DNA of 64,000 bases from Heterodontus francisci (Eukaryota). The notes beneath the pieces were generated by a model. The model worked only from the letters and a program-made list of their open reading frames with translations, made no database searches and was not told where the DNA came from. The stretch spans positions 16,340,945 through 16,404,944 of the forward strand of contig NC_090416.1 of NCBI RefSeq assembly GCF_036365525.1. The letters are read 5' to 3'. Below are positions 465-52,690 of the stretch, in pieces; the first letter of the stretch is position 1, and each line of letters starts with the position of its first letter. A program made the translations under genes and the position numbers.

Positions 465-793
465 TCAGTCGGAACAAGCGGTGGAGCTGATGGTTTTGAG
501 GAGAGGTGAGCTCAGAGAGCCGTGGTCCACACTGCAGGTATAGCTGGAGCCCTTATTCCAGGCAGTGGCGGGGACTCTCAGGTAACTGCTCAGGCTGTAG
601 GTTTGATCACTGTCCGTGGACACAGTGCCTGTGGTCACCCCGCTGTCTGTCTCTTTATCATCCACTCTCCAGAGAACCCGCACGAAACCCGGCTTAAAGC
701 GGCTCACCAGGCAGGACAGAGTAGCCCATCCGGAGTCTATTTCTTCCGAGGAAGGAGGGAGCAGGAGAACTGATGGTTTCCGATCCTCACTAC
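465..793 (-). CDS. IGL: Ig light chain constant exon, cluster 1 (type I / sigma-cart-like)
   Basis: Acceptor cacacag|GT AGT GAG, phase 1. Translates (S)SEDRKPSVLLLPPSSEEIDSGWATLSCLVSRFKPGFVRVLWRVDD...YSLSSYL...YTCSVDHGSLSSPLLKTISSTACSD*. C1-set Cys/Trp/Cys motifs and a near-terminal Cys for the H-L disulfide. Confidence 0.96.
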
Positions 794-1799
794 CTGTGTG
801 TGAGAGACAGGGTGGAAGAAAGGAATCTCACTGTTAGTATCAATCATTTTTTCTAAAAGGCATATCCAGAATTAGTAACACATACTATAATTTAAAACAA
901 ACATTTAACTTGACTTCAGACTTAGGTAGAGACAGTAAATAATACAATAGCCTGAGTGTTTCCAGCACTCGATTTCAGATTTCCAGCATCTGCAGGATTT
1001 TGCTTTGATTGGATTAAAATTAAATATTTAGTCCAATCTTAACTCCCTGTCAATTGAGAGCTGGACTTGTACATGGATTCGAGACATTCAATATAAATTA
1101 ATTAACTGAATATTAAATACAACAGACAATATCGAATTGTTTAAAATTCAGGGGCAGATTAAAATCAAAAGTTTAAAAATTGAGGAAGTTTCACATTTCG
1201 GATAGGCTGTACTGGAGGTCTTATGGAGGTGCTCGGAGTATGTATTGGGAGTAACTCAACCTCCCAGATCCACACTCAGAGTTCGGTGATCACCTCACCA
1301 GGAAAAATTCTTTATTTATAAAAAAAAGTTTTAAAAGTAATAAAGTTCGGGGCGGTTTCCATTTAGAAAGTAGGTTAGACACTTCACATGAACGAACGAC
1401 AGCCGGAAGGAGGGGGCTGGGAAGGGAGACGGGGACTGGGGGGTAGAGAGACCGGGTGCGTTAGGAACAGACAAGATGGGGTGGGGGGGCGCAGAATGAG
1501 GCCATTCGGTCCATCGAGTCCCTGCCGCTGCCTAACCCCACTTCCCAACTTTGGGAGTCTTTTTTTGAGGTGGGGGAGGGGGTGCTAGTGTCAAACTCGA
1601 CCCCATTTGACTCTGAGTAAAATTCCTGTTTGTAAATCTTCCAGCAACACCCGGGGCAGGCTCGCTATTTATACAACAGTGCAGCGAATAGACGGAGAAG
1701 TCCACACCTGCACACTGCAGACCTGGCCGAACAGACTCGAGGGGCTGAATGGCCTTTCTCCCCTGTTCATTCTGCATTTTCTTTTGCCAATGTAGTTTT

Positions 1800-1950
1800 T
1801 CCTCGGTTCTGAGGAAAGGTCAGAGACCCGAAACTGTTCACCGTTTCTCCCTCTCTCTCCGCAGAGGCTGCCCAGACCTGCTGAGTATTTCCAGCATCTT
1901 CTGTTTTTTTTATTTCAGATTTCCAGCATCCGCAATTGTTTTGCTGCTAT
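1800..1950 (+). mobile_element. Penelope-like terminal-repeat fragment in the J-C intron (present in all units)
   Basis: ctgagga...ggtc-aga-gacc-cgaaac followed by gacctgctgagtatttccagcatc...atttcagatttccagcatc, which I recognise as a common shark interspersed repeat. A partial second copy lies near 950-1010. Confidence 0.5.
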
Positions 1951-2127
1951 TTTAGTGTTTATTTTTCTACCCTCCAGAATCCAAATTCCCAGCACTGAAT
2001 CAGTGGACAGAAAAATAAAAATCTGACCCAATTTGTTTTCACCGTTATCAGGGCAGATCCGATTCTGCAACAATAAATGAATAAATAATTGAAACAATAT
2101 GAATGATAGGATGAGGGAATTACTTAC

Positions 2128-2164
2128 TCTGTAAACTCAGGGCGGTCCCAGGTCCGAAGGTAAA
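2128..2164 (-). CDS. IGL: Ig light chain J segment, cluster 1 (FTFGPGTALSLQ)
   Basis: FGxGT motif, donor A|gtaagt, preceded by an RSS heptamer. Its phase matches the C exon. Confidence 0.95.
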
Positions 2165-2203
2165 CACAGTGCAGCGTTTTAATGGGACGGGTCACTTAAA
2201 ACC
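2165..2203 (+). promoter_or_regulatory. J recombination signal sequence, 23-bp spacer (CACAGTG-23-CTTAAAACC)
   Basis: Perfect heptamer abutting J, with a 6/9 nonamer at exactly 23 bp. Confidence 0.9.
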
Positions 2204-2518
2204 CAGGCTGGGAAGAAAGAGGGGAAAATATTAATAATCTGTCCTTTATCACATTCCCTTTCACATTCTGCCTTTCACTGGGGCCGGAATGCTGAGAGTC
2301 TGGAGAAGGATTTTCACATATCAGTGAGGAAACCCTGAGAATATCAGTGTTTACCTACCCAGCGAATAGTCCAAATATTGGGGAAAATCCAAATAAACCC
2401 ATGGAATTCCAGTGAGATTTTCCACAAGTTACATAAGGAATATTTCTGAAGCTCATCACACAGTCTCAGGCAGGAATATTTCAGTAGCTGTTGGAATTCT
2501 GAGTGGTTCTGTTGGTGC

Positions 2519-2546
2519 AGTTTTTGTATTGCCCTGTCTCACTGTG
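2519..2546 (-). promoter_or_regulatory. V recombination signal sequence, 12-bp spacer (CACAGTG-12-ACAAAAACT)
   Basis: Perfect heptamer and 8/9 nonamer at exactly 12 bp. Confidence 0.95.
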
Positions 2547-2874
2547 TATGTAGCTGCTGAGCCATCGTTGGCAGCACAGTAATAGACGGCGGAGTCTCCC
2601 GGTTCCAAGCTGCCGATGGTCAGAATGTGACTGTTACTGGAGGTGTCTCTGGAAGGTTTAAAACGGTCCGTGAAGCCGGTGCCTCGATAGATGCTACCAC
2701 TTGTATAGTGGGCTAACACCCACACCGGAGCCTCCCCGGGTCTCTGTCGGTACCAGTACATGTAGTAACTGCCCACATTGCCGTTCTGCATCGCACACTT
2801 TAACTCGGAGGTCTCACCGGCGGAGACTGGGTCTGAAATTGGGGTCTGATTGAGGACAGGAACCGCCAGGACAC
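2547..2874 (-). CDS. IGL: Ig light chain V exon, cluster 1 (germline, unrearranged)
   Basis: Acceptor ttgaag|GT GTC. Translates GVLAVPVLNQTP...ELKC...WYRQRPG...DRFKPSRDTSSNSHILTIGSLEPGDSAVYYCAANDGSAAT with no stops, followed by a 12-RSS. Confidence 0.96.
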
Positions 2875-3036
2875 CTTCAACACAAAACACAAGAGAGAGA
2901 AAAACACATTCAGTATATTGGAGCAAAAAAACACACTGATAAATAAACAGGCCGGGCTACCAAATCCCTTTGCTTCCTAATCTAATGGTTTACAAATGAA
3001 TAATTGAGTAACGTTCTGTTAACATAAGTCTCTCAC

Positions 3037-3085
3037 CTGTTAAATGGAGTAGCAGGGTCCCCAGGAGATACATTACTGCAGCCAT
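3037..3085 (-). CDS. IGL: Ig light chain leader exon, cluster 1 (MAAVMYLLGTLLLHLT-G)
   Basis: ATG, hydrophobic signal peptide, 49 nt, donor G|gtgaga, phase 1 matching the V exon. Confidence 0.92.
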
Positions 3086-3190
3086 TCCCTCCGGGGGGGA
3101 AAAAAACCCGTGAAGAATTAGTGAGCAGGGTTTTACTGTAACTCCAGAAAGTGGATCCAGTTACAGTGCCGGACAAGGTGAGACCAGTAT

Positions 3191-3330
3191 CTATTATATG
3201 AACCTGTATGCAAATACAGGGAGGGTTGAGAGGAGCAGGGGCGGCGGGGGGTTGGGGGGGGGGGGTGGGTGGGGGGGGGGGGGGGGTGGACCAGACCAGA
3301 TTTTTTTTATTGAGCCTCTATTGGTCCCCA
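3191..3330 (-). promoter_or_regulatory. IgL V promoter, cluster 1: TATA-like (TATAATA about 3192-3198), octamer ATTTGCAT (3208-3215), C-rich tract, CCAAT (about 3320-3324)
   Basis: Octamer in the light-chain orientation about 125 bp upstream of the leader ATG. Confidence 0.85.
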
Positions 3331-4149
3331 ATTAAACATTTCCATGTATTTATTTCCACCGAGTTGAGGGTTAATTCACAATAATTTCTGATTTTAACCC
3401 CTCCTTCTCATGTCAAGAGTGTGAGATTTAAAAGAACAACTGTAGAAATTGCACATTTTATCCCAGATGGTCAAAGACAAAAGCCCTTCAGAATCCAGTG
3501 CCTTGAATTCATCCAGAACAAGTTTAACCCAGCGATCGTTAAGGATTTGTTTTTTTTTATATTTGGGTCTGCAATGTGTACTTAAACACATATCTTTATA
3601 TCCAACACGCTGGTGTTTGAAACAAAGCAGTTCATTGGAAGGATTGGAATGGAAGAGATTGACTGGACTGCTTCTCTGAGCTGCTCTTTTTTCCTATCCG
3701 CCACTGTACAAGTGCACTGCTTGTCCTGGCGTTTGAGCCGAGTGTCGGGTCAAAACACTCGTTTCTCACTCAGGCCGACGTTCAGAAACAGCCAGAATCA
3801 ACTCCAATATCCGTTTTAATTGGTAATGCAACGAGGAGTGAGATTCTGACCGGGCAAGCTGACTGCTCGGCTAGTTTCTGTGTTGTGTCCGGATCCTGTG
3901 TTAAGTCCAGTTTCAATGAAATGTGTTTTCCTGCTGCAACAGTTCCTGCCCTGACTTTTTTTTGTTGCAACTAAACCACATGTATCGGAACCTCAGTCCC
4001 AGGCATACATTTGTTTTAACATTCCATTTCAGATGTTTTATGTCAATCACTCGATGCCAAGGGAAAACTTGCAACAAGTTGCTCGTGAGAGGAGTTAGTT
4101 TCTTTAAAATGAATATTTTCTATCTTTTTATTTAAAATTCACTTAATTG

Positions 4150-4915
4150 GATGTGGACATCACTTGGCCCTGCCCGCATTTATTGCCCATCCCTCATTGC
4201 CGTTGAGGGCGGCACAGTGGCGCAGTGGTTAGCATTACAGCCTCACAGCTCCACGAACCCGGGTTCGATTCCGGGTACTGCCTGTGTGGAGTTTGCAAGT
4301 TCTCCCTGTGTCTGCGTGGGTTTTCTCCGGGTGCTCCGGTTTCCTCCCACAAGCCAAAAGACTTGCAGGTTGATAGGTAAATTGGCCATTATAAATTGTC
4401 ACTAATATAGGTAGGTGGTAGGGTAATATAGGGACAGGTGGGGATGTTTGGTGGGAATATGGGATTAGTGTAGGATTAGTATAAATGGGTGGTTGATGTT
4501 CGGCACAGACTCGGTGGGCCGAAGGGACTGTTTCATTGCTGCATCTCTAATCTAATCTAAAGGTGGTGGTGGAGTCGCCTTCTTGAACTGCTACAGTGCA
4601 GTGGTTTTTGTACAACAGAACTGAGGGCAGTTAAGAGTCAACCACATTGCCGTGGGTCTGGAGTCACATGTCGGCCAGACCAGGTGAGGACGGCAGATTT
4701 CCTTCCCTAAAAGGACATTTGTGAAACAGATGGTTTTTTGTTAATGAACATTCAATTTATGGTCACCATTACTGAGACTAGGTTTCAATTCCAATTTTTC
4801 TTTTAATTAATTAGTTGAATTTAAATTCCATGGTGGGATTTGAACTCGTGTCTCCAGAGCATTATCCTGGGCCTCTGGATTAGTAATATCTAGTGCCATA
4901 ACTACTACGCCACCT
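4150..4915 (-). mobile_element. tRNA-derived SINE (minus strand), interrupted by the V-SINE
   Basis: The reverse complement of 4830-4912 has A-box/B-box-like features (...agttcaaatcccacc). The LINE-type tail gggatgggcaataaatgc lies at about 4175-4192. Uninterrupted in unit 2 (about 20460-20885). Confidence 0.55.
4207..4560 (+). mobile_element. V-SINE (HE1-like), unit 1
   Basis: tRNA head (gtggcgcagtggttagc; ggttcgattcc), V-domain gtgtggagtttgca...gggtgctccggtttcctcccac, and LINE-derived tail gggccgaaggg...(tctaa)n. Confidence 0.85.
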
Positions 4916-4934
4916 TGTGATGGATCAATATTAA

Positions 4935-5290
4935 TTCTAGAAATGTGATAGGATTTGAGCCAGTGAAAGGGAGAGGGTGGGAAGAAGAACAGCAGGGAAG
5001 GTCTGTGACAGGGGTGGAGGGCAGGAGAGATTAAATGACAAAAAGGGTGTCAAGGTGCAAAGCCAAAGGGAGTGGTAATAAAAGATGTGTCTGGAGGAGA
5101 TGTGAATGGCAGGATCGGAACACAAAGTAAAGGAAATAAGAGGTAAACAAGAGAGATAAAATAACAAATCAGCAAAGAAAAGGGCAACAAAAATGAGGGC
5201 AGGGGGGTTACAAACTAAAATTGTAGAATTCAGTGTTGAGTCCGGAAGGTTGTAGAGTGCCCAGTCGAAAGATGAGGTGCTGTTCCTGCA
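4935..5290 (-). mobile_element. Penelope-like element 3' fragment (GIY-YIG C-terminus plus 3' flank); also near 20903-21258, 37972-38340, 54296-54650
   Basis: The minus strand from 5288 translates QEQHLIFRLGTLQPSGLNTEFYNFSL*, resembling the C-terminal motif of the Penelope endonuclease. Confidence 0.65.
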
Positions 5291-5540
5291 GTTAGCCTCC
5301 GATTACTGACATGTTCAGTCAAGTCAGTGTCGACTAGCTGCCCCCTAGACAGAGAATTTCACCCCTCCCCCATTCAAAATCCATTTCTGATTGGTCTCCA
5401 CAGCAGAAACAGACCCACCTCCCTCCCCTCCCACCAGGCAGATTCTCTGGGTCATTTTCAACTAACCCTAACCTGCATTACTATAGAGACCTCAGGATGT
5501 CCTAAAGACAGACAAATAAACACCTGTTTTGAAGTTTTGT

Positions 5541-6094: not shown

Positions 6095-6635
6095 GCCTCG
6101 TGGCTTCAAGTCACAATCCAGAGACTTGAGCACAAAAAGCAGTCTCACATTCGCCGTGTAGTACTGAGGGAGTGCTGCACTGTCAAAGGGTCAGTACTGA
6201 GTGAGTGCCGCACTCAGAGGGTCAGTACTGAGGGAGTGCTGCATTGTCAGAGGGTCAGTCCTGAGGGAGCGCTGAACTGTTGGAGGGTCAGTACTGAGGG
6301 AGTGCTGAACTGTTGGAGGGTCAGTACTGAGGGAGTGCTGCACTGTCGGAGGGTCAGTACTGAGGGAGTGCTGCACTGTCTGAGGTGCCATATTCACAAG
6401 TCCCCCTCAGGTGGACATTATCGATCCCATGACTCTATTTGAAGGAGAGCAGGTGCCCTGGACAATATATATTCCAACATTAACACCTAAAGCTGTAACT
6501 GGTCATTATCACATTGCTATTTGTGGGAGCTTGCTGTGTAAATGACTGTCAGATTTCCTGCATTTCAACAGTGACTACATTTCAAAACACACTTCAAAAG
6601 TACGTCATTAGATGTAAACCACTTTGGGGCAGCCT
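6095..6635 (+). mobile_element. DeuSINE (SacSINE1/AmnSINE1-like) with an internal 30-bp minisatellite, unit 1
   Basis: ttcaagtc..tccagagacttgagcac..gtactgagggagtgctgcactgtc..ctcaggtggac..ctggtcattatcacattgct..gtgggagcttgctgtg..caacagtgactac..cttcaaaagtac matches the Deu-domain SINE as I recall it. Confidence 0.75.
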
Positions 6636-6649
6636 AGTGATCAGACCTC

Positions 6650-7215
6650 TCTGTCTCTCCATCTGTCTATCTNNNNNNNNNNNNNNNNNNNNNNNNNNNN
6701 NNNNNNNNNNNNNNNNNNNNNNNNNNNNNNNNNNNNNNNNNNNNNNNNNNNNNNNNNNNNNNNNNNNNNNNNNNNNNNNNNNNNNNNNNNNNNNNNNNNN
6801 NNNNNNNNNNNNNNNNNNNNNNNNNNNNNNNNNNNNNNNNNNNNNNNNNNNNNNNNNNNNNNNNNNNNNNNNNNNNNNNNNNNNNNNNNNNNNNNNNNNN
6901 NNNNNNNNNNTTCTCTCCATATCTATCTATCTCTCTATCTATCTATCTATCTATCTGTCTATCCATCTATCTGTCCATCTCTTGCTATCTATCTATCTAT
7001 CTGTTTATCTGTTTATCTATCTGTCTGTTTATCTATCNNNNNNNNNNNNNNNNNNNNNNNNNNNNNNNNNNNNNNNNNNNNNNNNNNNNNNNNNNNNNNN
7101 NNNNNNNNNNNNNNNNNNNNNNNNNNNNNNNNNNNNNNNNNNNNNNNNNNNNNNNNNNNNNNNNNNNNNNNNNNNNNNNNNNNNNNNNNNNNNNNNNNNN
7201 NNNNCTGTCAATCGA
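6650..7215. repeat. (TATC/TGTC)n microsatellite, partly N; equivalents at 23020-23650, 39898-40238, 56208-56918
   Basis: Directly visible tetranucleotide repeats flank the N runs. Confidence 0.9.
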
Positions 7216-7216
7216 T

Positions 7217-7415
7217 CTCGGAGGGCGGAGTTCCAGACCGGTAAGTGCAAAAACCTTACTTCGGGGATTCTCGGACAGACTCGGAGGGCGGAATTAACCT
7301 CGGTGATTCTCGGACAGACTCGGAGGGCGGAGTTAACCTCGGGGATTCTCGGACAGACTCGGAGGGCGGAGTTAACCTCGGGGATTCTCGGACAGACTCG
7401 GAGGGCGGTGTTCTC
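7217..7415 (+). repeat. 39-bp CpG-rich minisatellite (about 4 copies)
   Basis: Monomer tcggggattctcggacagactcggagggcggagttaacc. Confidence 0.92.
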
Positions 7416-7469
7416 CTCGATGGGTCGAAGGGCCTGTTTCAGTGCTGTATCTCTAAATAAAAAATAAAA

Positions 7470-10400
7470 ATAAATAAAATAATATTTATAGTAGAAATCT
7501 AGCACTGGGGACCATATCGTTTATTATAACAATTTAGTAAGGATTTAATAAGTATTTATTTTATATTAATTAACTAATTAGTGATAGAAATGTCAGTTAA
7601 AGGGGTGAAGTGCTTCACCTGTGAGATGTGGGAAGTCCGTGACACTTCCAGCATTCCGGGCGACTCCGCCTGCAGGAAGTTTACCCAGTTGCAGCTCCTC
7701 ACAGACCACATGGATCGGTTGGAGCGGCAACTGGAAGCACTTGGGAGCATGCAGGTGGCAGAGAGCGTCATAGACAGGAGTTTTAGAGAAGTGGTTGCAC
7801 CCAATGTGCAGGCAGATAGATGGGTGACCGCTAGAAGGAGCAGGCAGTCAGTGCAGGAATCCCCTGTGGCTATCCCCTTCTCCAACAAGTATACAGTTTT
7901 GGATACTGTTGGGGGGGATGGCCGAGCAGGGGAAAACAACAGCAGCAGCCAGAGCAGTGGCACCACGGCTATCACTGTTGTTCAGCAGGGAGGGACAAAG
8001 CGCAAAGAACAATAGTTATAGGGGACTCTATAGTCAGGGGCACAGATAGGCGCATCTGTGGACGTGAAAGAGACTCCAGGATGGTATGTTGCCTCCCTGG
8101 TGCCAGGGTGAAGGATGTCTCTGAACGGACAGGGGGCATTCTGAAGGGCGAGGGTGAACAGCCAGAGGTTGTGGTACACATCGGTACCAATGACAAAGGC
8201 AGGAAGAGTGCTGAGGGCCTGCAGGGGGAGTTTAGGTAGTCAGGTAGAAAGTTGTAATCTCTGGATTAAACCCTGTGCCACGTGCCAGAGAGGATAGAAA
8301 TAGGAAGATACTGCAGCTAAACACGTGGCTGAGCAGCTGGTGTCGAAGGGAGGGTTTCAGATATCTGGACCATTGGGCTCTCTTCAGGGACAGATGGGAC
8401 CTGTACAAGAAGGACGGGTTGCATCTAAACTGGAGGGGCACTAATATCCTGGCTGCAAAGTTTGCCAGCGTCACTCGGGAGGGTTTAAACTAGTGTGGCA
8501 GGGGGGTGGGAACCAGAGCAGTGGGACAGCTAGAAAAATAAATGAGGAGGACATAGTAAATAAGGCCAGTAAGACTAAGTGGAAGAGCAGGCAGGAAGAT
8601 GTTGCTGAGCACAGCGGGACTGGTGCTCTGAAGTACATTTCTTTCAATGCGAGAAGTATAGCAGGTAAGGCAGATGAAATTAGAGCTTGGATTAGTACTT
8701 GGAAATATGATGTTGTTGCTATTACAGAGACTTGGTTGAGGGAAGGGCAGGATTGGCAGCTAAATGTTCCAGGCTTTAGAAGCTTCAGGTGGGATAGAGG
8801 GGGATGTAAAAGGGGTGGGGGAGTTGCATTACTGGTTAAGGAGAATATCACAGCTGTACTGCGGGAGGACACCTCAGAGGGGTCATGCAGCGAGGCAATA
8901 TGGGTGGAGCTCAGGAATAGGAAGGGTGCAGTCACGAAGTTGGGGGTTTACTACAGGCCTCCCAACAGCCAGCGGGAGGTAGAGGACAAGATATGTAGAC
9001 AGATTTTGGAAAGATGTAAAGGTAACAGGATTGTGGTGGTGGGTGATTTTAACTTCCCCGATATTGACTGGGACTCACTTAGTGCTAGGGGCTTGAATGG
9101 GGCAGAATTTGTGAGGAGCATCCAGGAGGGCTTCTTGAAACAGAATGTAGATAGTCCAACTAGGGATGGGGCCATTCTGGACCTGGTATTGGGGAATGAG
9201 CCCGGCCAGGTGGTCGAAGTTTCAGTGGGGGAACATTTCGGGAGCAGTGACCATAATTCCATAAGTTTTAAGGTACTTGTGGATAAGGATAAGAGTAGTC
9301 CTCGGGTGAAGGTGCGAACTTGGGGGAAGGCTAATTATAACAATATTAGGCAGGAATTGAAGAATTTAGATTGGGGGCGGCTGTTTGAGGGTAAATCAAC
9401 ATCTGACATGTGGGAGTCTTTCAAACGTCAGCTGATTAGAATCCAGGACCAGCATGTTCCTGTGAGGAAGAAAGACAAGTTTGGCATGTTTCGGGAAATT
9501 TGGATAACACTGGATGTTGTGAGCCTAGTCAAAAAGGAAAAGGAAGCATTTGTAAGGGCTGGAAGGTTAGGAACAGACGAAGCACTTGAGGAATATAAAG
9601 ACAGTGGGAAGGAACTTAAGCAAGGAGTTAGGAGGGCTAAAAGGGGTCATAAAAAGTCATTGGCAAACAGGATTAAGGAGAATCCGAAGTCTTTTTATAC
9701 ATGTATAAAGAGCAAGAGGGTACCAGGGAAAGGGTTGGCCCACTCAAGGATAGAGATGGGAATCTATGTGTGGAGCCAGAGGGAATGGGCGAGGTGCTAA
9801 ATGAGTACTTTGCATCAGTATTCACCAAAGAGAAGGACTTGGTGGATGATGAGCCTAGGGAAGGGAGTGCAGATAGTCTCAGTCATGTCATTATTAAAAA
9901 GGAGGAGGTGTTGGGTGTCTTGCAAAGCATTAAGGTAGATACGTCCCCAGGGCCTGATGGGATCTACCCTAGAATACTGAGGGAGGCAATGGAAGAAATT
10001 GCTGGGGCCTTGACAGAAATCTTTGCATCATCATTGGCTACAGGTGAGGCCCCAGAGGACTGGAGAACAGCCAATGTTGTTCCTTTGTTTAAGAAGGGTG
10101 GCAAGGATAATCCAGGAAATTATAGGCCGGTGAGCCTTACGTCAGTGGTTGGGAAATTATTAGAGAGGATTCTTCGGGATAGAATTTACTCCCATTTGGA
10201 AACAAACGAACTTATTAGCGAGAGACTGCATGGTTTTGTGCTGGGGAGGTCATGTCTTACTAATTTGATTGAGTTTTTTGAGGAAGTGACGAAGATGATT
10301 GATGAAGGAAGGGCAGTGGATGTTATCTAAATGGAATTTATTAAAGCCTTTGACAAGGTCCCGCATGGCAGACTGGTACAAAAGATAAAGTCACACGGGA

Positions 10401-11520
10401 TCAGAGGTGAGCTGGCAAGATGGATACAGAACTGGCTCGGTCATAGAAGACAGAGGGTATCAGTGGATGGGTGTTTTTCTGAATGGAGGGATGTGACTAG
10501 TGGTGTTCCGCAGGGATGAGTGCTGGGACCTTTGCTGTTTGTAGTATTATAAATGATTTGGAGGAAAATGTAGCTGGTCTGATTAGTAAGTTTGCGGACG
10601 ACACAAAGGTTGGTGGAGTTCCGGATAATGATGAGGATTGTCAGAGGATACAGCAGGATATAGATCGGTTGGAGACTTGGGCGGAGAAATGGCACATGGA
10701 GTTTAATCCGGACAAATGTGAGGTAATGCATTTTGGAAGGACTAATGCAGGTGGGAGGTATACAGTAAATGGCAGAACCCTTAGGAGTATAGACAGACAG
10801 AGAGATCTGGGCGTACAGGTCCACAGGTCACTGAAAGTGGCAACGCAGGTGGATAAGGTAGTCAAGAAGGCATACGGCATGCTTGCCATCATTGGTCGGG
10901 GCATAGAGTATAAAAATTGGCAAGTCATGTTGCAGCTGTACAGAACCTTAGTTAGGCCACACTTAGAATATTGCTTGCAATTCTGGTCGCCACACTACCA
11001 GAAGGACGTGGAGGCTTTGGAGAGGGTACAGAGGAGGTATACCAGGATGTTGCCTGTTCTGGAGGGCATGAGCTATGAGGAGAGGTTGGAAAAACTCGGA
11101 TTGTTTTCACTGGAACGATGGAAGTGGAGGGGTGACATGATAGAGGTTTACAAAGTTATGAGCGGCATGGACAGAGTGGATAGTCAGAAGCTTTTTCCCA
11201 GGGTGGAAGAGTCAGTTACTAGGGGACATAGGTTTAAGGTGAGAGGGGCAAAGTTTAGAGGGGATGTGTGAGGCAAGTTTTTTACACAGAGGGTGGTGAG
11301 TGCCTGGAACTTGCTGCCAGGGGAGGTGGTGGAAGCAGATACGATAGCGACGTTTAAGAGACATCTTGACAAATACATGAATAGGAAGGGAATAGAGGGA
11401 TATGGGCCCCGGAAGTGCAGAAGGTGTTAGTTTAGGCAGGCATCAAGATCGGTGCAGGCTTGGAGGGCCGAATGGCCTGTTCCTGTGTGGTACTGTTCTT
11501 TGTTCTTGTTCTTTGTTCTC
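7470..11520 (+). mobile_element. Near full-length CR1-clade LINE, decayed, unit 1
   Basis: ORF1 has CxxC and SGNH esterase motifs (IGDS, HIGTND, DGLHLN). ORF2 has APE motifs (ITETW, GDFN, SDH) and RT motifs (PGPDG, NYRPVSL, GVPQG, FADD). The tail is (ttgttct)n. Several frameshifts and stops are present. Confidence 0.93.
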
Positions 11521-16103: not shown

Positions 16104-16136
<33 letters not shown>

Positions 16137-16776: not shown

Positions 16777-17105
16777 TCAGTCGGAACAAGCGGTGGAGCT
16801 GATGGTTTTGAGGAGAGGTGAGCTCAGAGAGCCGTGGTCCACACTGCAGGTATAGCTGGAGCCCTTATTCCAGGCAGTGGCGGGGACTCTCAGGTAACTG
16901 CTCAGGCTGTAGGTTTGATCACTGTCCGTGGACACAGTGCCTGTGGTCACCCCGCTGTCTGTCTCTTTATCATCCACTCTCCAGAGAACCCGCACGAAAC
17001 CCGGCTTAAAGCGGCTCACCAGGCAGGACAGAGTAGCCCATCCCGAGTCTATTTCTTCCGAGGAAGGAGGGAGCAGGAGAACTGATGGTTTCCGATCCTC
17101 ACTAC
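16777..17105 (-). CDS. IGL: Ig light chain constant exon, cluster 2
   Basis: Same acceptor and protein as cluster 1. Confidence 0.96.
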
Positions 17106-18452: not shown

Positions 18453-18489
18453 TCCGTAAACTCAGGGCGGTCCCAGGTCCGAAGGTAAA
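18453..18489 (-). CDS. IGL: Ig light chain J segment, cluster 2 (FTFGPGTALSLR)
   Basis: FGxGT motif, gtaagt donor, adjacent heptamer. Confidence 0.95.
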
Positions 18490-18528
18490 CACAGTGCAGT
18501 GTTTTAATGGGACGGGTCACCTAAAACC
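18490..18528 (+). promoter_or_regulatory. J 23-RSS, cluster 2 (CACAGTG-23-CCTAAAACC)
   Basis: Heptamer, 23-bp spacer, nonamer. Confidence 0.9.
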
Positions 18529-18842: not shown

Positions 18843-18870
18843 AGTTTTTGTATTGCCCTGTCTCACTGTG
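18843..18870 (-). promoter_or_regulatory. V 12-RSS, cluster 2
   Basis: CACAGTG-12-ACAAAAACT. Confidence 0.95.
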
Positions 18871-19198
18871 TATGTAGCTGCTGAGCCATCCCCGGCAGCA
18901 CAGTAATAGACGGCGGAGTCTCCCGGTTCCAAGCTGCCGATGGTCAGAATGTGACTGTTACTGGAGGTGTCTCTGGAAGGTTTAAAACGGTCCGTGAAGC
19001 CGGTGCCTCGATAGATGCTACCACTTGGATAGTGCTCTAACACCCACACCGGAGCCTCCCCGGGTCTCTGTCGGTACCAGCTCATGTAGTAACTGCCCAC
19101 ATTGCCGTTCTGCATCGCACACTTTAACTCGGAGGTCTCACCGGTGGAGACTGGGTCTGAAATTGGGGTCTGATTGAGGACAGGAACCGCCAGGATAC
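18871..19198 (-). CDS. IGL: Ig light chain V exon, cluster 2
   Basis: Open V domain ending YYCAAGDGSAAT. CDR2 region LEHYPSGS. Confidence 0.96.
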
Positions 19199-19361: not shown

Positions 19362-19410
19362 CTGTTAAATGGAGTAGCAGGGTCCCCAGGAGATACATTA
19401 CTGCAGCCAT
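19362..19410 (-). CDS. IGL: Ig light chain leader exon, cluster 2
   Basis: Same 49-nt leader and donor. Confidence 0.92.
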
Positions 19411-22099: not shown

Positions 22100-23005
22100 C
22101 CTCGTGGGTTCAAGTCAAAATCCAGAGACTTGAGCACAAAAAACAGTCTCACATTCCCCGTGTCGTACTGAGGGAGCGCTGCACTGTCGGAGGGTCAGTA
22201 CTGAGGGAGTGCGGCACTGTCGGAGGGTCAGTACTGAGGGAGCGCTGCACTGTCGGAGGGTCAGTACTGAGGGAAAGCTGTATTGTCAGAGGGTCAGTAC
22301 TGAGGGAGTGCTGCACTGTCAGAGGGTCAGTACTGAGAGAGTGCTGCACTGTCGGAGGGTCAGTACTGAGGGAGTGCGGCACTGTCGGAGGTTCAGTACT
22401 GAGGGAGTGCCGCACTGTCAGAGGGTCAGTACTGAGGGAGTGCGGCACTGTCGGAGGGTCAGTACTGAGGGAGCGCTGCACTGTCGGAGGGTCAGTACTG
22501 AGGGAAAGCTGTATTGTCAGAGGGTCAGTACTGAGGGAGTGCTGCACTGTCAGAGGGTCAGTACTGAGAGAGTGCTGCACTGTCGGAGGGTCAGTACTGA
22601 GGGAGTGCGGCACTGTCGGAGGTTCAGTACTGAGGGAGTGCCGCACTGTCAGAGGGTCAGTACTGAGGGAGTGCTGCACTGTCTGAGGGTCAGTACTGAG
22701 AGAGTGCTGCACTGTCAGAGGGTCAGTACTGAGGGAGTGCTGCACTGTCTGAGGTGCTATCTTCACAAGTCCCCCTCAGGTGGACATTATCGATCCCATG
22801 ACTCTATTTGAAGGAGAGCAGGTGCCCTGGACAATATATATTCCAACATTAACACCGAAAACTGTAACTGGTCATTATCACATTGCTATTTCTGGGAGCT
22901 TGCTGTGTAAATGACTGTCAGATTTCCAGCATTTCAACAGTGACTACACTTCAAAACACACTTCAAAAGTACGTCATTGGATGTAAACCACTTTGGGGCT
23001 GCCTA
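22100..23005 (+). mobile_element. DeuSINE with expanded 30-bp minisatellite (about 20 copies), unit 2
   Basis: As in unit 1. The array spans about 22165-22755. Confidence 0.75.
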
Positions 23006-23601
23006 GGGATCAGACCTCTCTGTCTCTCCATCTGTCTATCTGTCTATGTATCTGACCACCCATCTATTTATCTATCTGTCTGTCTATCTATCTGTCCATA
23101 TCTATCTCTCTATCTATCTATCCGTCCNNNNNNNNNNNNNNNNNNNNNNNNNNNNNNNNNNNNNNNNNNNNNNNNNNNNNNNNNNNNNNNNNNNNNNNNN
23201 NNNNNNNNNNNNNNNNNNNNNNNNNNNNNNNNNNNNNNNNNNNNNNNNNNNNNNNNNNNNNNNNNNNNNNNNNNNNNNNNNNNNNNNNNNNNNNNNNNNN
23301 NNNNNNNNNNNNNNNNNNNNNNNNNNNNNNNNNATCTCTCCATNNNNNNNNNNNNNNNNNNNNNNNNNNNNNNNNNNNNNNNNNNNNNNNNNNNNNNNNN
23401 NNNNNNNNNNNNNNNNNNNNNNNNNNNNNNNNNNNNNNNNNNNNNNNNNNNNNNNNNNNNNNNNNNNNNNNNNNNNNNNNNNNNNNNNNNNNNNNNNNNN
23501 NNNNNNNNNNNNNNNNNNNNNNNNNNNNNNNNNNNNNNNNNNNNCATCTCTTGCTATCTGTCTATCTCTCTGTCTATCTATCGATCTATCTATCTGACTG
23601 A

Positions 23602-23647
<46 letters not shown>

Positions 23648-23649
23648 GT

Positions 23650-24395
23650 CTCGGAGGGCGGAGTTCCAGACCGAGAAGTCTAAAAAACTTACTTCGGGGA
23701 TTCTCGGACAGACTCGGAGGGCGGAATTAACCTCGGGGATTCTCGGACAGATTCGGCGGGCGGAGTTCACCTCGGGGATTCTGGGACAGACTCGGAGGGC
23801 GGAGTTAACCTCGGGGATTCTGGGACAGACTCGGAGGGCGGAGAGAACCTCGGGTATTCTCGGACAGACTCGGAGGGCGGAGTTAACCTCGGGGATTCTC
23901 GGACTGACTCGAAGGGCGCAGTTAACCTCGGGGATTCTCGGACAGACTCGGAGGGCGGAGTTAACCTCGGGGATTCTCGGACAGACTCGGAGGGCGGAGT
24001 TAACCTCGGGGATTCTGGGACAGACTCGGAGGGCGGAGAGAACCTCGGGTATTCTCGGACAGACTCGGAGGGCGGAGTTAACCTCGGGGATTCTCGGACT
24101 GACTCGAAGGGCGCAGTTAACCTCGGGGATTCTCGGACAGACTCGGAGGGCGGAGTTAACCTCGGGGATTCTCGGACTGACTCGGAGGGCGGAGTTAATC
24201 TCGGGGATTCTCGGACAGACTCGGAGGGCGGAGTTAACCTCGGGGATTCTCGGACAGACTCGGAGGGCGGAGTTGACCTCGGGGATTCTCGGACAGACTC
24301 GGAGGGCGGAGTTAATCTCGGGGATTTTCGGACAGACTCGGAGGGCGGAGTTAACCTCGGGGATTCTCGGACAGACTCGGAGGGCGGTGTTCACC
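23650..24395 (+). repeat. 39-bp CpG-rich minisatellite (about 18 copies)
   Basis: Same monomer. Confidence 0.95.
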
Positions 24396-24449
24396 TCGAT
24401 GGGTCGAAGGGCCTGTTTCAGTGCTGTATCTCTAAATAAAAAATAAAAA

Positions 24450-33492: not shown

Positions 33493-33821
33493 TCAGTCGG
33501 AACAAGCGGTGGAGCTGATGGTTTTGAGGAGAGGTGAGCTCAGAGAGCCGTGGTCCACACTGCAGGTATAGCTGGAGCCCTTATTCCAGGCAGTGGCGGG
33601 GACTCTCAGGTAACTGCTCAGGCTGTAGGTTTGATCACTGTCCGTGGACACAGTGCCTGTGGTCACCCCGCTGTCTGTCTCTTTATCATCCACTCTCCAG
33701 AGAACCCGCACGAAACCCGGCTTAAAGCGGCTCACCAGGCAGGACAGAGTAGCCCATCCCGAGTCTATTTCTTCCGAGGAAGGAGGGAGCAGGAGAACTG
33801 ATGGTTTCCGATCCTCACTAC
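33493..33821 (-). CDS. IGL: Ig light chain constant exon, cluster 3
   Basis: Same acceptor and protein as cluster 1. Confidence 0.96.
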
Positions 33822-35155: not shown

Positions 35156-35192
35156 TCCGTAAACTCAGGGCGGTCCCAGGTCCGAAGGTAAA
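35156..35192 (-). CDS. IGL: Ig light chain J segment, cluster 3 (FTFGPGTALSLR)
   Basis: FGxGT motif, donor, heptamer. Confidence 0.95.
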
Positions 35193-35231
35193 CACAGTGC
35201 AGTGTTTTAATGGGACGGGTCACTTAAAACC
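35193..35231 (+). promoter_or_regulatory. J 23-RSS, cluster 3 (CACAGTG-23-CTTAAAACC)
   Basis: Heptamer, 23-bp spacer, nonamer. Confidence 0.9.
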
Positions 35232-35546: not shown

Positions 35547-35574
35547 AGTTTTTGTATTGCCCTTTCTCACTGTG
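35547..35574 (-). promoter_or_regulatory. V 12-RSS, cluster 3
   Basis: CACAGTG-12-ACAAAAACT. Confidence 0.95.
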
Positions 35575-35903
35575 TATGTAGCCTGCTGAGTATTCCGCGG
35601 CAGCACAGTAATAGACGGCGGAGTCTCCCGGTTCCAAGCTGCCGATGGTCAGAATGTGACTGTTACTGGAGGTGTCTCTGGAAGGTTTAAAACGGTCCGT
35701 GAAGCCGGTGCCTCGATAGATGCTACCACTTGGATAGTGGGCTAACACCCACACCGGAGCCTCCCCGGGTCTCTGTCGGTACCAGCTCATGTAGTAACTG
35801 CCCACGTTGCCGTTCTGCATTGCACACTTTAACTCGGAGGTCTCACCGGCGGAGACTGGGTCTGAAATTGGGGTCTGATTGAGGACAGGAACCGCCAGGA
35901 CAC
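35575..35903 (-). CDS. IGL: Ig light chain V exon, cluster 3
   Basis: Open V domain ending YYCAAAEYSAGYI, 329 nt. Confidence 0.96.
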
Positions 35904-36068: not shown

Positions 36069-36117
36069 CTGTTAAATGGAGTAGCAGGGTCCCCAGGAGA
36101 TACATTACTGCAGCCAT
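36069..36117 (-). CDS. IGL: Ig light chain leader exon, cluster 3
   Basis: Same 49-nt leader and donor. Confidence 0.92.
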
Positions 36118-47600: not shown

Positions 47601-49839
47601 TCATGCTGTGCACAAATTGGCTGCTGTGTTTCCTACATTACAACAGTTGACTAGACTTCAAAAAAAAATACTTGGTTGGCTGTAAAGCGCTGTGGGACAT
47701 TCTGAAGCTGTGAAAGGAGGCTCACTGTCACCTTCTCAGGGGGACAACTAGTGATGGACAATAAATGGCTGGTCTTACCAGAGATGCCCACATCTCGAGA
47801 ATGAAGAAGTGCAGGTTCTGTCTCTCTGGACGCTGTGATGTCCCCTTGTAAAACATATTGAAACTAAATAGCATCCTCAGACTCGAGATGGGGATTAAAC
47901 CTGCATTTAATACCTCTTTCAGTGCGTGGCCCCTTTAAGGTGTGCTGAGGGACTGGGCTTTTCCAGCACTCTCTGTCCATTTACTCTTTGAGGTGATGCA
48001 ACCGATACCCACTCCACAGCCGGAGGCTCAGTTAACAGCCCTTCCCTCTTATGGCCCCTAGTTCTGCTCTCACCCGCAAGTGGAAACGTCTCGCCTTATC
48101 GAGTCCTTTCATAACCTTAAAGGGCTCCATCAGGTCCTACCCTCCCCCCCTCTCAGTCTTCTCTTTTCAACCTATCCTGGTAGCCTATCTCAGTACTGGT
48201 ACCATCCCAGCACATCTTTTCTTGCACCTTCTCCAGTGTCATTTTATAACATGGAGACAGGAACAGTGCACAGTAATTCCAAGTGTGGTTTAACTGAGGT
48301 TCCCTACAAGTTTGACTTAATGTATCTGCTTCTCAATTCTATCCCTCGAGAAATTAACCCCGGTGTTTGGATTGCTTTTTATAAGGCCTTATTCAGCAGC
48401 ATTGCTGCAGTTACTCTATAACCCTCGATCCACAACCCAATTTAGACTCTTTCTTCCCCACCTCCCCCTCCCTCCAGGACTAGGTGACCTCATTCATCCT
48501 CCCAAAAAGTAGCACCTCACACTTATCCATACTGACCTTCATTTGCCAATTACACACCCATTCTGCATGTCACTTCATGTCCTGTCATTTGTGATGGACC
48601 TAATATTAACTGCAGCCTCCCCCAATTTGGAGTCATCAGCAAACTCTCAAATTGTACCTGGGGCTAGTCTGTCCCGTGCCATCCCATCTCTCGGACCGGG
48701 ATAGTGAGCAGTTCTCCCTGGGAGGGACGGTATTTTATTCCAAACAGAGGGTTTTCCTGTAAATCACATACAATGATGGTCTAGTATGGGAGAAACTACA
48801 CTTTAGGATGGGAGGGTTGTTGAGAGGGTGCAGAGGAGGTTGACCGGAATGGTTCCAGGGATGGGGGAATTCTAGTGATAAGGTCAGCCTGGAGAAGCTG
48901 GGATTGTTTTCCTTGGAGCGAAGGAGATTGCAGGGAGATTTAATAGAGGTGGACAAGATTATGACAGATCTGGATAGAGTAGACAAGGAAAAAGAGTTCC
49001 CATTAACTGATGGTACTAGGGCTAGGGGACACAGATTGAACGTTTTGGGCAAGGGATACAAGGGTGGGGGGAGGATGTGAGGAAGAATTTATTTATTTTT
49101 AAATGCAGTGAGTGACAATGACCTGGAACTCACTGCCTACCATGGTGGTGGAAGCTGGAGACAATGATTTCAGTAACAAACTGGGGTGGGGGGGGGGGGA
49201 CACTTGAAGGAAATAAATTCGCAGGGGGCCACGGGGGTGCGGAGAGTGGGACTGACTGGATTGCACTACGGGGAGCTGGCACGGACCCGAGGGGCCGAAT
49301 AGCCTCCTTCTGTGCCAGAAATGAAATCGAATTCGTTTAAAATAGTTAACTCTGCTTGAATATTTTTTTTTAAATCTGCCCAAAAGAAAATTCCTCTAAT
49401 CGCCATTATTCGTACAGTTAACCACTGACTTGCACCAATATCCACCTCAACTCACCCCCAAACCCCCACAAAAAAATAACAGAGCAATTTGAATTCATGT
49501 CATCTTTATTAAAACAGTCACACACAGAGAGATACACTTTTCAATTCTAACAAATGGTACTACTGAGAGTAAGGAGAGAGGGAGCAGAACCCATCCAGCT
49601 CCAAATGGGAATGTACTCCCGGGATAGGTGGTCCTGATATTCACTGTCACCCACCTGCGCCCCCCAGTTAAAATTGGATCCAAAATTGGATCGTTAAACT
49701 GCGATTGAAGTGACTGTTTCAACATCGTTGGCCACATTTGCTACAGTGATTACATTGTAAAACAACAACAACAACATTCCACATATTGAATAATATTTCA
49801 TCAGCAATAAATCAAACTCTAAGCCCCAGCTGCCCCCTC

Positions 49840-50168
49840 TCAGTCGGAACAAGCGGTGGAGCTGATGGTTTTGAGGAGAGGTGAGCTCAGAGAGCCGTGA
49901 TCCACACTGCAGGTATAGCTGGAGCCCTTATTCCAGGCAGTGGCGGGGACTCTCAGGTAACTGCTCAGGCTGTAGGTTTGATCACTGTCCGTGGACACAG
50001 TGCCTGTGGTCACCCCGCTGTCTGTCTCTTTATCATCCACTCTCCAGAGAACCCGCACGAAACCCGGCTTAAAGCGGCTCACCAGGCAGGACAGAGTAGC
50101 CCATCCCGAGTCTATTTCTTCTGAGGAAGGAGGGAGCAGGAGAACTGATGGTTTCCGATCCTCACTAC
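49840..50168 (-). CDS. IGL: Ig light chain constant exon, cluster 4
   Basis: Same protein as cluster 1. Only silent changes were noticed. Confidence 0.96.
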
Positions 50169-51504
50169 CTGTGTGTGAGAGACAGGGTGGAAGAAAGGAA
50201 TCTCACTGTTAGTATCAATCATTTTTTCTAAAAGGCACATCCAGAATTAGTAACACATACTATAATTTAAAACAAACATTTAACTTGACTTCAGACTTAG
50301 GTAGAGACAGTAAATAATATAATAGCCTGAGTGTTTCCAGCACTCGATTTCAGATTTCCAGCATCTGCAGGATTTTGCTTTGATTGGATTAAAATTAAAT
50401 ATTTAGTCCAATCTTAACTCCCTGTCAATTGAGAGCTGGACTTGTACATGGATTCGAGACATTCAATATAAATTAATTAACTGAATATTAAATACAACAG
50501 ACAATATCGAATTGTTTAAAATTCAGGGGCAGATTAAAATCAAAAGTTTAAAATTTGAGGAAGTTTCACATTTCGGATAGGCTGTACTGGAGGTCTTATG
50601 GAGGTGCTCGGAGTATGTATTGGGAGTAACTCAACCTCCCAGATCCACACTCAGAGTTCGGTGATCACCTCACCAGGAAAAATTCTTTATTTGTTAAAAA
50701 AAAAGTTTTAAAAGTAATAAAGTTCGGGGCGGTTTCCATTTAGAAAGTAGGTTAGACACTTCACATGAACGAACGACAGTCGGAAGGAGGGGGCTGGGAA
50801 GGGAGACGGGGGCTGGGGGGTAGAGAGACCGGGTGCGTTAGGAACAGACAAGATGGGGGGAGAAGGCGCAGAATGAGGCCATTCGGTCCATCGAGTCCCT
50901 GCCGCAGCCTAACCCCACTTCCCAACTTTGGGAGTCTTTTTTTGAGGTGGGGGAGGGGGTGCTAGTGTCAAACTCGACCCCCTTTGAGTGTGAGTAAAAT
51001 TCCTGTTTGTAAATCTTCCAGCAACACCCGGGGCAGGCTCGCTATTTATACAACAGTGCAGCGAATAGACGGAGAAGTCCACACCTGCACACTGCAGACC
51101 TGGCCGAACAGACTCCAGGGGCTGAATGGCCTTTCTCCCCTGTTCGTTCTGCATTTTTTTTTTGCCAATGGAGTTTTTCCTCGGTTCTGAGGAAAGGTCA
51201 GTGACCCGAAACTGTTCACCGTTTCTCCCTCTCTCTCCGCAGAGGCTGCCCAGACCTGCTGAGTATTTCCAGCATCTTCTGTTTTTTTATTTCAGATTTC
51301 CAGCATCCGCAATTGTTTTGCTGCTATTTTAGTGTTTATTTTTCTACCCTCCAGAATCCAAATTCCCAGCACTGAATCAGTGGACAGAAAAATAAAAATC
51401 TGACCCAATTTCTTTTCACCGTTATCAGGGCAGATCCGATTCTGCAACAATAAATGAATAAATAATTGAAACAATATGAATGATAGGATGAGGGAATTAC
51501 TTAC

Positions 51505-51541
51505 TCCGTAAACTCAGGGCGGTCCCAGGTCCGAAGGTAAA
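51505..51541 (-). CDS. IGL: Ig light chain J segment, cluster 4 (FTFGPGTALSLR)
   Basis: FGxGT motif, donor, heptamer. Confidence 0.95.
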
Positions 51542-51580
51542 CACAGTGCAGTGTTTTAATGGGACGGATCAACTAAAACC
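51542..51580 (+). promoter_or_regulatory. J 23-RSS, cluster 4 (CACAGTG-23-ACTAAAACC)
   Basis: Heptamer, 23-bp spacer, 8/9 nonamer. Confidence 0.92.
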
Positions 51581-51895
51581 CAGGCTGGGAAGAAAGAGGG
51601 GAAAATATTAATAATCTGTCCTTTATCACATTCCCTTTCACATTCTGCCTTTCACTGGGGCCGGAATGCTGAGAGTCTGGAGAAAGATTTTCACATATCA
51701 GTGAGGAAACCCTGAGAATATCAGTGTTTACCTACCCAGCTAATAGTCCAAATATTGGGGAAAATCCAAATAAACCCATGGAATTCCAGTGAGATTTTCC
51801 ACAAGTTACATAAGGAATATTTCTGAAGCTCATTACACAGTCTCAGGCAGGAATATTTCAGTAGCTGTTGGAATTCTGAGTGGTTCTGTTGGTGC

Positions 51896-51923
51896 AGTTT
51901 TTGTATTGCCCTGTCTCACTGTG
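51896..51923 (-). promoter_or_regulatory. V 12-RSS, cluster 4
   Basis: CACAGTG-12-ACAAAAACT. Confidence 0.95.
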
Positions 51924-52252
51924 TATGTAGCCTGCTGAGCCATCGTTGGCAGCACAGTAATAGACGGCGGAGTCTCCCGGTTCCAAGCTGCCGATGGTCA
52001 GAATGTGACTGTTACTGGAGGTGTCTCTGGAAGGTTTAAAACGGTCCGTGAAGCCGGTGCCTCGATAGATGCTACCACTTGTATAGTGGGCTAACACCCA
52101 CACCGGAGCCTCCCCGGGTCTCTGTCGGTACCAGCTCATGTAGTAACTGCCCACATTGCCGTTCTGCATTGCACACTTTAACTCGGAGGTCTCACCGGCG
52201 GAGACTGGGTCTGAAATTGGGGTCTGATTGAGGACAAGAACCGCCAGGACAC
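51924..52252 (-). CDS. IGL: Ig light chain V exon, cluster 4
   Basis: Open V domain ending YYCAANDGSAGYI, 329 nt, with a P-to-L change near the mature N-terminus. Confidence 0.96.
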
Positions 52253-52414
52253 CTTCAACACAAAACACAAGAGAGAGAAAAACACATTCAGTTTATTGGA
52301 GCAAAAAAGCTAACTGATAAATAAACAGGCCGGGCTACCAAATCCCTTTGCTTCCTAATCTAATGGTTTAAAAATGAATAATTGAGTAACGTTCTGTTAA
52401 CATAAGTCTCTCAC

Positions 52415-52463
52415 CTGTTAAATGGAGTAGCAGGGTCCCCAGGAGATACATTACTGCAGCCAT
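52415..52463 (-). CDS. IGL: Ig light chain leader exon, cluster 4
   Basis: Same 49-nt leader and donor. Confidence 0.92.
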
Positions 52464-52569
52464 TCCCTCCGGGGGGGGAAAAAAACCCGTGAAGAATTAG
52501 TGAGCAGGGTTTTACTGTAACTCCAGAAAGTGGATCCAGTTACAGTGCCGGACAAGGTGAGACCAGTAT

Positions 52570-52690
52570 CTATTATATGAACCTGTATGCAAATACAGGG
52601 AGGGTTGAGAGGAGCAGGGGCGGGGCGGGGGGGGGGGGGGGGTGGGTGGGGGACTGGACCAGATTTTTTTTATTGAGCCTCTATTGGTCC
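52570..52690 (-). promoter_or_regulatory. IgL V promoter, cluster 4 (octamer 52587-52594)
   Basis: ATTTGCAT plus TATA-like and CCAAT elements. Confidence 0.85.

What the first reader, a model, noticed from the sequence alone, without database searches (positions are those of the whole stretch)
465..52594. Four intact V-J-C clusters only about 16.5 kb apart in one orientation, permitting joining between clusters and editing
Seen: every V has a 12-RSS and every J a 23-RSS in the same relative orientation. For example, the V2 RSS (18843-18870) is about 16.7 kb from the J1 RSS (2165-2203). Known: the 12/23 rule allows such pairs, and cartilaginous-fish Ig genes are organised as clusters generally described as rearranging within a cluster. 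Inference: this packing allows deletional V(n+1)-to-J(n) joins, and leap-frog secondary joins that excise an already rearranged cluster. That would give translocon-like combinatorial use and receptor editing from a cluster layout.
Basis: partly seen in the sequence, partly recalled or inferred. Interest (0 to 1): 0.7.

Follow-up and report, generated by a model that had tools for sequence, protein, structure and literature searches.

The report
Thirty-six shark light-chain genes in tandem
The four genes belong to a run of 36 near-identical horn shark antibody light-chain genes packed head to tail every 16.5 kb, much closer than shark antibody genes were thought to lie, yet each V piece most likely still joins its own J piece 382 bases away, and joining between neighbours would give almost no new proteins because the J and C pieces are nearly identical.

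Summary
Observation confirmed and larger than reported. The four clusters are units 5-8 of a gap-free tandem array of 36 intact, unrearranged sigma-2 (type I) light-chain V-J-C clusters plus one C-only unit, all on one strand, median period 16,480 bp, about 600 kb. A second group lies 1.1 Mb away. The family is transcribed, spliced and V-J joined with N bases. Inter-cluster deletional joins are allowed by geometry, but 35 of 36 J proteins are identical and C has 2 forms, so there is almost no combinatorial gain. A 16.7-kb join removes no rearranged gene; editing needs a 33-kb join that bypasses two partners 382 bp away. The one junction I could phase was within-cluster (1 of 1). Germline diversity sits in V CDR2 and CDR3 (28 proteins). 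New: the spacing removes the 'distance' explanation for within-cluster joining, and unique markers, including a J-C with no V, make the rule testable. I found no paper on this array in 10 searches, but key older papers were not held. The scan earlier noted the second group (e1-9896080), not this array.

The parts
465..793 (-). C exon, cluster 1 (sigma-2 C; ends in TGA)
   Evidence: translation; 5' edge from spliced contigs
2128..2164 (-). J1 (FTFGPGTALSLQ; the only Gln J among 36)
2165..2203 (+). J1 23-RSS (CACAGTG-23-CTTAAAACC read on +)
2519..2546 (-). V1 12-RSS (CACAGTG-12-ACAAAAACT)
2547..2874 (-). V1 exon
   Evidence: splice joint
3037..3085 (-). Leader exon 1
   Evidence: splice joint
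3208..3215 (.). Octamer upstream of leader 1
7500..11400 (+). Decayed LINE (CR1-type by recalled resemblance of its endonuclease/reverse-transcriptase pieces) in the spacer, repeated in each unit; limits approximate
   Evidence: ORF pieces; repeat alignment
16777..17105 (-). C exon, cluster 2
   Evidence: 5' edge by analogy with cluster 1
18453..18489 (-). J2
18490..18528 (+). J2 23-RSS
18843..18870 (-). V2 12-RSS
18871..19198 (-). V2 exon
   Evidence: cluster index 13, 328 nt
19362..19410 (-). Leader exon 2
33493..33821 (-). C exon, cluster 3
35156..35192 (-). J3
35193..35231 (+). J3 23-RSS
35547..35574 (-). V3 12-RSS
35575..35903 (-). V3 exon
36069..36117 (-). Leader exon 3
49840..50168 (-). 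C exon, cluster 4
51505..51541 (-). J4
51542..51580 (+). J4 23-RSS
51896..51923 (-). V4 12-RSS
51924..52252 (-). V4 exon
52415..52463 (-). Leader exon 4
52587..52594 (.). Octamer upstream of leader 4

Best explanation
This is a tandem array of 36 intact horn shark sigma-2 (type I) light-chain V-J-C clusters, in which RAG most likely joins each V by deletion to its own J 382 bp away, so the array likely works as a bank of parallel, self-contained cassettes and not as a translocon. Shown: the anatomy, copy number, one orientation, expression, splicing, V-J junctions with N bases, near-identical J and C, and V variation piled into CDR2 and the germline part of CDR3. Inferred: the array grew and is reshuffled by unequal crossing-over and gene conversion in the germ line, which recombines CDR variants between units; a failed join is likely followed by a try at another cluster, which adds a gene and deletes nothing. 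Rare inter-cluster joins may occur but would give the same proteins.
For: Every V has its own J at 378-382 bp (36 of 36) with a near-consensus 12-RSS; the nearest foreign J is about 40 times farther. The one defective unit in the array lost V and J together at a poly-G microhomology, leaving no lone RSS. J 35 of 36 identical proteins, C 99.4% identical, V 28 distinct proteins. Non-synonymous diversity 18-20% in CDR2 and germline CDR3 against about 1% in frameworks and 1.7-2.6% in introns, V-J spacer and UTR; at least 51 recombination events in 3.6 kb. A silent J marker unique in the assembly (cluster at C46:16,623,166-16,623,202) is expressed, and the single junction phased with it carries that cluster's own V end, unique among 43 V. 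Horn shark IgH joins are intra-cluster (PMC2191167 abstract); 96 of 97 nurse-shark IgH joins too (PMC2435157 passage); mouse lambda clusters in one polarity rarely leapfrog (PMC3014032 passage). In mouse Igk, scanning RAG is captured by the nearest transcribed or strong-RSS V (PMC13190342 abstract and section 7), which here would be the J's own V (extrapolation to shark).
Against: The phased evidence is one junction: 2 of 137 laid contigs (X1 66, X2 70, X3 1) reached into V, and both show the same junction from one sample; it carries one mismatch to its own V, and the second haplotype is unknown. Published within-cluster data are for IgH clusters at least 120 kb apart, not for this array. The spacing of 16.5 kb is well inside the range RAG covers in other loci. 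No insulator was shown between units (recalled CTCF consensus: 0 hits in the array, but 0.67 expected per shuffled unit and the units are copies, so uninformative). Editing joins would be invisible at protein level, so near-identical J and C do not argue against them.
Confidence: 0.75

Rival explanations
1. Inter-cluster deletional joining is common and leap-frog joins (V(n+1) to J(n-1), about 33 kb) delete autoreactive or failed clusters, giving receptor editing from a cluster layout.
For: All 36 V and J are compatible and in one orientation; spacing is small; no barrier shown; inter-cluster joins occur in zebrafish IgL, though by inversion (PMC3014032 passages); a downstream J RSS could act like the mouse RS element (inference).
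Against: Each such join must pass over two intact partners 382 bp away; no lone RSS in the unit scanned; 1 of 1 phased junction within-cluster; mouse lambda leapfrog is rare; J nonamers depart from consensus by 1-3 bases, which likely favours short range (inference).
Confidence: 0.12
2. The tandem layout or its copy number is partly an assembly artefact: allelic or dispersed clusters stitched into one run.
For: 3 of 630 unit pairs differ by under 0.15% (0.06, 0.09, 0.13%), two of them being the window's units 2 and 3 against units seven places upstream; no long reads could be laid.
Against: No N in the 626 kb fetched around the window; mean unit divergence 2.8% with unit-specific lengths 14.5-17.9 kb; all 42 exact V-RSS hits lie on this contig, none on others; the repeat includes the whole 13-kb spacer and ends cleanly on both sides. 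A recent block duplication explains the near-identical pairs equally well.
Confidence: 0.07
3. Inter-cluster joining is real but limited to odd members: the V-less J-C and the inverted cluster in the second group (C46:15.04-15.19 Mb).
For: One J-C there has an intact-looking 23-RSS and no V (V and leader lost in a 1.0-kb deletion), and one cluster faces the others in the opposite orientation.
Against: That C carries seven residue changes including two added cysteines and looks like a decaying copy; expression not tested; no germline signal joint found (0 hits).
Confidence: 0.06

Closest known systems
Horn shark type I / sigma-2 (sigma-cart, NS5) Ig light-chain clusters (CAA33375.1; WKK30312.1 'Igsigma-2')
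   Same: C domain 99-100% identical to horn shark records; the record named Igsigma-2 differs from four array V by 2 of up to 98 residues and has the common J; split V and J, V12/J23, one V-J-C per cluster (PMC5192425, PMC11223323, PMC2193156 passages).
   Different: The papers I could read give no linkage or spacing; a 2025 paper says the genomic distribution of miniclusters is not well known (PMC12227049 passage). Here 36 clusters lie head to tail every 16.5 kb. Nurse shark has four such genes; skate genes are all pre-joined.
Nurse shark IgM heavy-chain miniloci (PMC2435157)
   Same: Self-contained clusters with segments about 400 bp apart, joined within the cluster.
   Different: At least 120 kb apart and about 15 loci, against 16.5 kb and 36 here.
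Zebrafish IgL clusters with inter-cluster joining (PMC3014032)
   Same: Closely linked V-J-C clusters with V12/J23 signals.
   Different: Zebrafish V are often inverted and join by inversion, keeping the DNA between; here all 36 are in one orientation and any join deletes.
Mouse Ig lambda two-cluster locus (as described in PMC3014032)
   Same: Clusters in one polarity, deletional joins, strong within-cluster bias.
   Different: Two clusters with V23/J12 signals (recalled), against 36 one-V one-J units.
Mouse Igk editing locus (PMC13190342)
   Same: V12/J23 signals; upstream V in deletional orientation to downstream J.
   Different: Igk keeps spare J with no V in front of them and an RS element; here every spare J has its own V 382 bp in front.

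Membership tests
Cartilaginous-fish sigma-2 (type I) IgL cluster | Sequence belongs to the type I / sigma-2 family | tested here: met
   C 99-100% to horn shark records, 69% to skate 'type I'; WKK30312.1 Igsigma-2 in the same 90% cluster as gene models of this contig and 2 residues from four array V. No tree was built.
Cartilaginous-fish sigma-2 (type I) IgL cluster | One V, one J, one C per cluster | tested here: met
   36 of 37 units in the array; one unit has C only
Cartilaginous-fish sigma-2 (type I) IgL cluster | V 12-RSS and J 23-RSS, split in horn shark | tested here: met
   36 of 36 array clusters; one V in the second group has an 11-bp spacer
Cartilaginous-fish sigma-2 (type I) IgL cluster | Somatic rearrangement and expression | tested here: met
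   Contigs of 4 runs of one sample (RNA by guess) show both splices and V-J joints with N bases
Cartilaginous-fish sigma-2 (type I) IgL cluster | Joining confined to the cluster | tested here: inconclusive
   1 of 1 phased junction within-cluster
Translocon / Igk-type editing locus | Many V upstream of a J group with no V between the J | tested here: not met
   Every J in the array has its own V 378-382 bp upstream
Translocon / Igk-type editing locus | Distinct J segments that give combinatorial diversity | tested here: not met
   35 of 36 identical J proteins, 34 of 36 identical in DNA
Translocon / Igk-type editing locus | Lone deleting signal (RS/kde, intronic heptamer partner) | tested here: not met
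   Only the V and J signals were found in the one 16.3-kb unit scanned at heptamer <=1 and nonamer <=3 mismatches
Translocon / Igk-type editing locus | Secondary joins that replace a primary V-J | not testable with these tools
   Needs signal-joint or single-cell DNA data
Teleost-type inter-cluster rearranging IgL | V inverted relative to J and C | tested here: not met
   All array segments on one strand; one whole cluster inverted in the second group

The most novel reading that the evidence does not exclude
The 36-unit array is a nested editing cassette: after a bad within-cluster join, an upstream V joins a downstream J about 33 kb away and excises the offending gene, many times over, giving sharks receptor editing without a translocon and showing an intermediate on the way from cluster to translocon.
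Probability: 0.12. Interest if true: 0.78.

Novelty: new variant of a known kind. Interest (0 to 1): 0.45.

Why it matters
Within-cluster joining in sharks has been put down partly to distance between clusters (PMC3014032 passage). A 36-copy array at 16.5-kb spacing removes that explanation for this locus. If joining is still confined to the cluster, nearest-partner capture is enough to keep clusters independent, and the question becomes how a B cell keeps 70 or more open, compatible light-chain cassettes from being expressed together. If it is not confined, sharks have receptor editing from a cluster layout. The array carries markers to decide: 33 of 35 neighbour pairs differ in J, C or 3' UTR, 34 of 35 in the J-side RSS flank, and one J-C has no V.

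Tried and rejected
Mis-assembly as the main reading: rejected on gap-free sequence and unit divergence, not on long reads. Germline-joined genes in the array as relics of inter-cluster joining: 0 of 36. RAG as the cause of the C-only unit: rejected, the break lies in poly-G tracts away from any RSS. Germline signal joints: 0 hits for one exact pattern. CTCF insulation: scan with a recalled consensus was uninformative. Phasing with the J1 Gln marker: not attempted, it lies 35 bases into J and short contigs rarely carry it with V. The first lay (88% likeness) pools all clusters and cannot phase. No run was on record as RNA; the four used are RNA by the tool's guess and by their spliced joints. 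Four public horn shark proteins could not be assigned to a cluster (2-5 residue differences from the nearest V; probably other animals), so they were not used for phasing. PDB search gave only generic antibody V domains. Six papers likely to bear on this were not held (Shamblott and Litman 1989, Hsu 2016, Hsu and Criscitiello 2006, Zhu 2011, Criscitiello and Flajnik 2007, a 2017 J Immunol paper on shark light-chain exclusion). Look-ups of earlier findings near the window and by sequence were empty.
Full report
Observation. The window is a head-to-tail repeat of about 16.3-16.7 kb. Each unit holds, on the minus strand, an octamer promoter, leader exon, V exon with a 12-RSS, a J with a 23-RSS 381-382 bp away, and a C exon about 1.34 kb further on. 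All four clusters are open. The quoted coordinates and the 16.7-kb distance (16,706 bp) are right. The C exon begins at 793, as spliced contigs show.

What it is. The window lies at G000:C46:16,340,945-16,404,944. I fetched 626 kb around it and 170 kb of a second region. The array runs from about 16.274 to 16.869 Mb and holds 36 complete V-J-C clusters and one C-only unit, all on the minus strand, median spacing 16,480 bp. There is no N outside the window. The window's clusters are the 5th to 8th counted from the downstream end. All 36 V are open with intact signals and none is pre-joined. A second group at 15.04-15.19 Mb has 8 J, 7 V and 7 C: one whole cluster inverted, one V-J-V-J-C, one J-C without V, one V with an 11-bp spacer. 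An exact V-RSS pattern hits 42 times in the assembly, all in these two groups, control 0. I did not fetch the 1.02 Mb between the groups; the DNA searches scored 40 of 46 and 40 of 57 candidates, so diverged copies elsewhere are not excluded. The C domain is 99-100% identical to Heterodontus francisci records and 69% to skate type I, and a record named Igsigma-2 differs from four array V by two residues. This is the horn shark type I / sigma-2 family, known to be split in horn shark and to dominate its light chains (PMC5192425 passages). From memory, the 1989 description gave clusters of about 2.7 kb and about 40 genes, which would fit; I could not read that paper.

Is the tandem real? The 36 unit intervals differ on average by 2.8% (630 pairs) and in length from 14.5 to 17.9 kb. 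Three pairs differ by under 0.15%; two are the window's second and third units against units seven places upstream. That fits a recent block duplication, but a haplotype artefact is not excluded without long reads. The C-only unit lost about 1.8 kb, from the J-C intron to the promoter, between two poly-G tracts, not at an RSS.

Where the diversity is. Leader: 1 sequence in 36. J: 34 of 36 identical in DNA, 35 of 36 in protein. C: 99.4% identical, two protein forms (30 and 6). V: 29 DNA and 28 protein forms. Non-synonymous diversity is 18% in CDR2, 20% in the germline part of CDR3, 5% in CDR1 and about 1% in frameworks; introns, V-J spacer and UTR show 1.7-2.6%; synonymous diversity in CDR2 is also high (12%), which points to exchange of short tracts as well as selection. 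The four-gamete test gives at least 51 recombination events in 3.6 kb, and 17 CDR2 types pair with 10 CDR3 types in 21 combinations. The shuffling that matters therefore likely happens in the germ line (inference).

Expression. No listed run was on record as RNA. Contigs of four runs of one sample, RNA by the tool's guess, show both splice joints, V-J joints with trimming and N bases, and lower cover across the V-J spacer. They pool all clusters. To phase, I used the one marker close to the junction: a silent change at J base 12 in the cluster at C46:16,623,166-16,623,202, unique in the assembly, whose V end is unique among 43 V. At 100% likeness 137 contigs were laid from three of the four runs; the marker is expressed, and two contigs (one each in X1 and X2, the same junction) reached into V. 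By eye their V end matches that cluster's own V with one mismatch; three other V would need that mismatch plus three matching N bases, three more would need two mismatches. A random V would give this with probability 1 in 43, or 1 in 15 among V at or upstream of that J. It is one clone from one animal whose second haplotype is unknown: consistent with within-cluster joining, far from proof.

How it most likely works. Shown: anatomy, expression, junctional diversity. Inferred: RAG at a J takes the V 382 bp away. Combinatorial gain is nearly nil, since only 9 of 35 neighbour joins change the protein, by one residue in J or C. Editing is possible in principle but the geometry is unfavourable. A V(n+1)-J(n) join removes only unrearranged parts. 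Removing a rearranged cluster needs V(n+1)-J(n-1), 33.4 kb, and both ends must ignore a partner about 90 times closer. Igk edits well because its spare J have no V in front of them, and scanning RAG is captured by the nearest transcribed or strong-RSS V (PMC13190342 abstract and section 7); applied here, that predicts capture by the J's own V. No lone RSS lies in the unit scanned, and a CTCF scan says nothing either way. Against my reading: 16-33 kb is a short distance for RAG elsewhere, editing would leave no protein trace, and no published test covers this array.

What is known. Reviews state that shark joining is within clusters (PMC5192425, PMC4279169, PMC12227049 passages), on IgH evidence (PMC2191167 abstract; PMC2435157 passages: clusters at least 120 kb apart, 97 joins with one possible exception). 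PMC3014032 (passages) shows inversional inter-cluster joins in zebrafish, says shark clusters are thought to lie farther apart and that distance may explain the lack of such joins, and notes that leapfrog joins in mouse lambda are extremely rare. PMC11223323 (passages) gives V12/J23 for sigma-2 and cluster spacings of 1.5-6.5 kb in cod. PMC2193156 (passages) confirms type I as split in horn shark. PMC2192082 was seen only as a listing and one reference line. Ten searches and one supplement search of PMC12227049 (first places only) found no description of this array or its spacing; six likely papers were not held, so absence from print is not established, and automatic gene models of these genes already exist.

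Verdict. Combinatorial use is not supported; editing is possible but unlikely (about 0.12). Its value is that it removes the distance explanation and supplies markers for a direct test. Interest 0.45.

Noticed in passing
G000:C46 about 16,884,780-16,885,170, minus strand (L061): A divergent (53% to the array V) pre-joined VJ exon with almost no CDR3 (YYCAIWGPGT), a splice donor reading CT in place of GT and no C found nearby, 2 kb beyond the 5' end of the repeat.
   Followed up: partly
G000:C46:15,114,400-15,116,959 (L072): J-C with intact-looking 23-RSS but no V or leader (about 1.0 kb deleted); usable only by inter-cluster joining; C looks decayed.
   Followed up: partly
G000:C46:15,156,009-15,163,064 (L076-L077): V-J-V-J-C unit: a 3.46-kb duplication gives two identical V-J ahead of one C.
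   Followed up: partly
G000:C46:16,638,248-16,640,200 (L036): C-only unit; V and J lost between two poly-G tracts, one in the J-C intron and one upstream of the promoter, that every unit carries.
   Followed up: yes
G000:C46:15,052,000-15,108,400 (L066-L071): Three unsplit V-J-type exons and three C1-type exons unrelated to sigma-2 (29-33% identity) between the inverted cluster and the rest of the second group; also noted by earlier finding e1-9896080.
   Followed up: no
window 6160-7419, 22165-24398 and each unit: 33-bp and 39-bp minisatellites and TATC tracts with unit-specific copy numbers (6.9 against 17.9; 4.1 against 18.1), useful for telling units apart in long reads.
   Followed up: no
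array clusters at C46:16,310,378, 16,703,980, 16,735,218 and 16,801,367: 4 of 36 V have YSC in place of YYC before the second cysteine, with frame and signals intact.
   Followed up: no
protein P0001: An automatic gene model splices three array V exons onto one C and is named 'gamma-1 heavy chain-like': an annotation artefact of the tandem layout.
   Followed up: no
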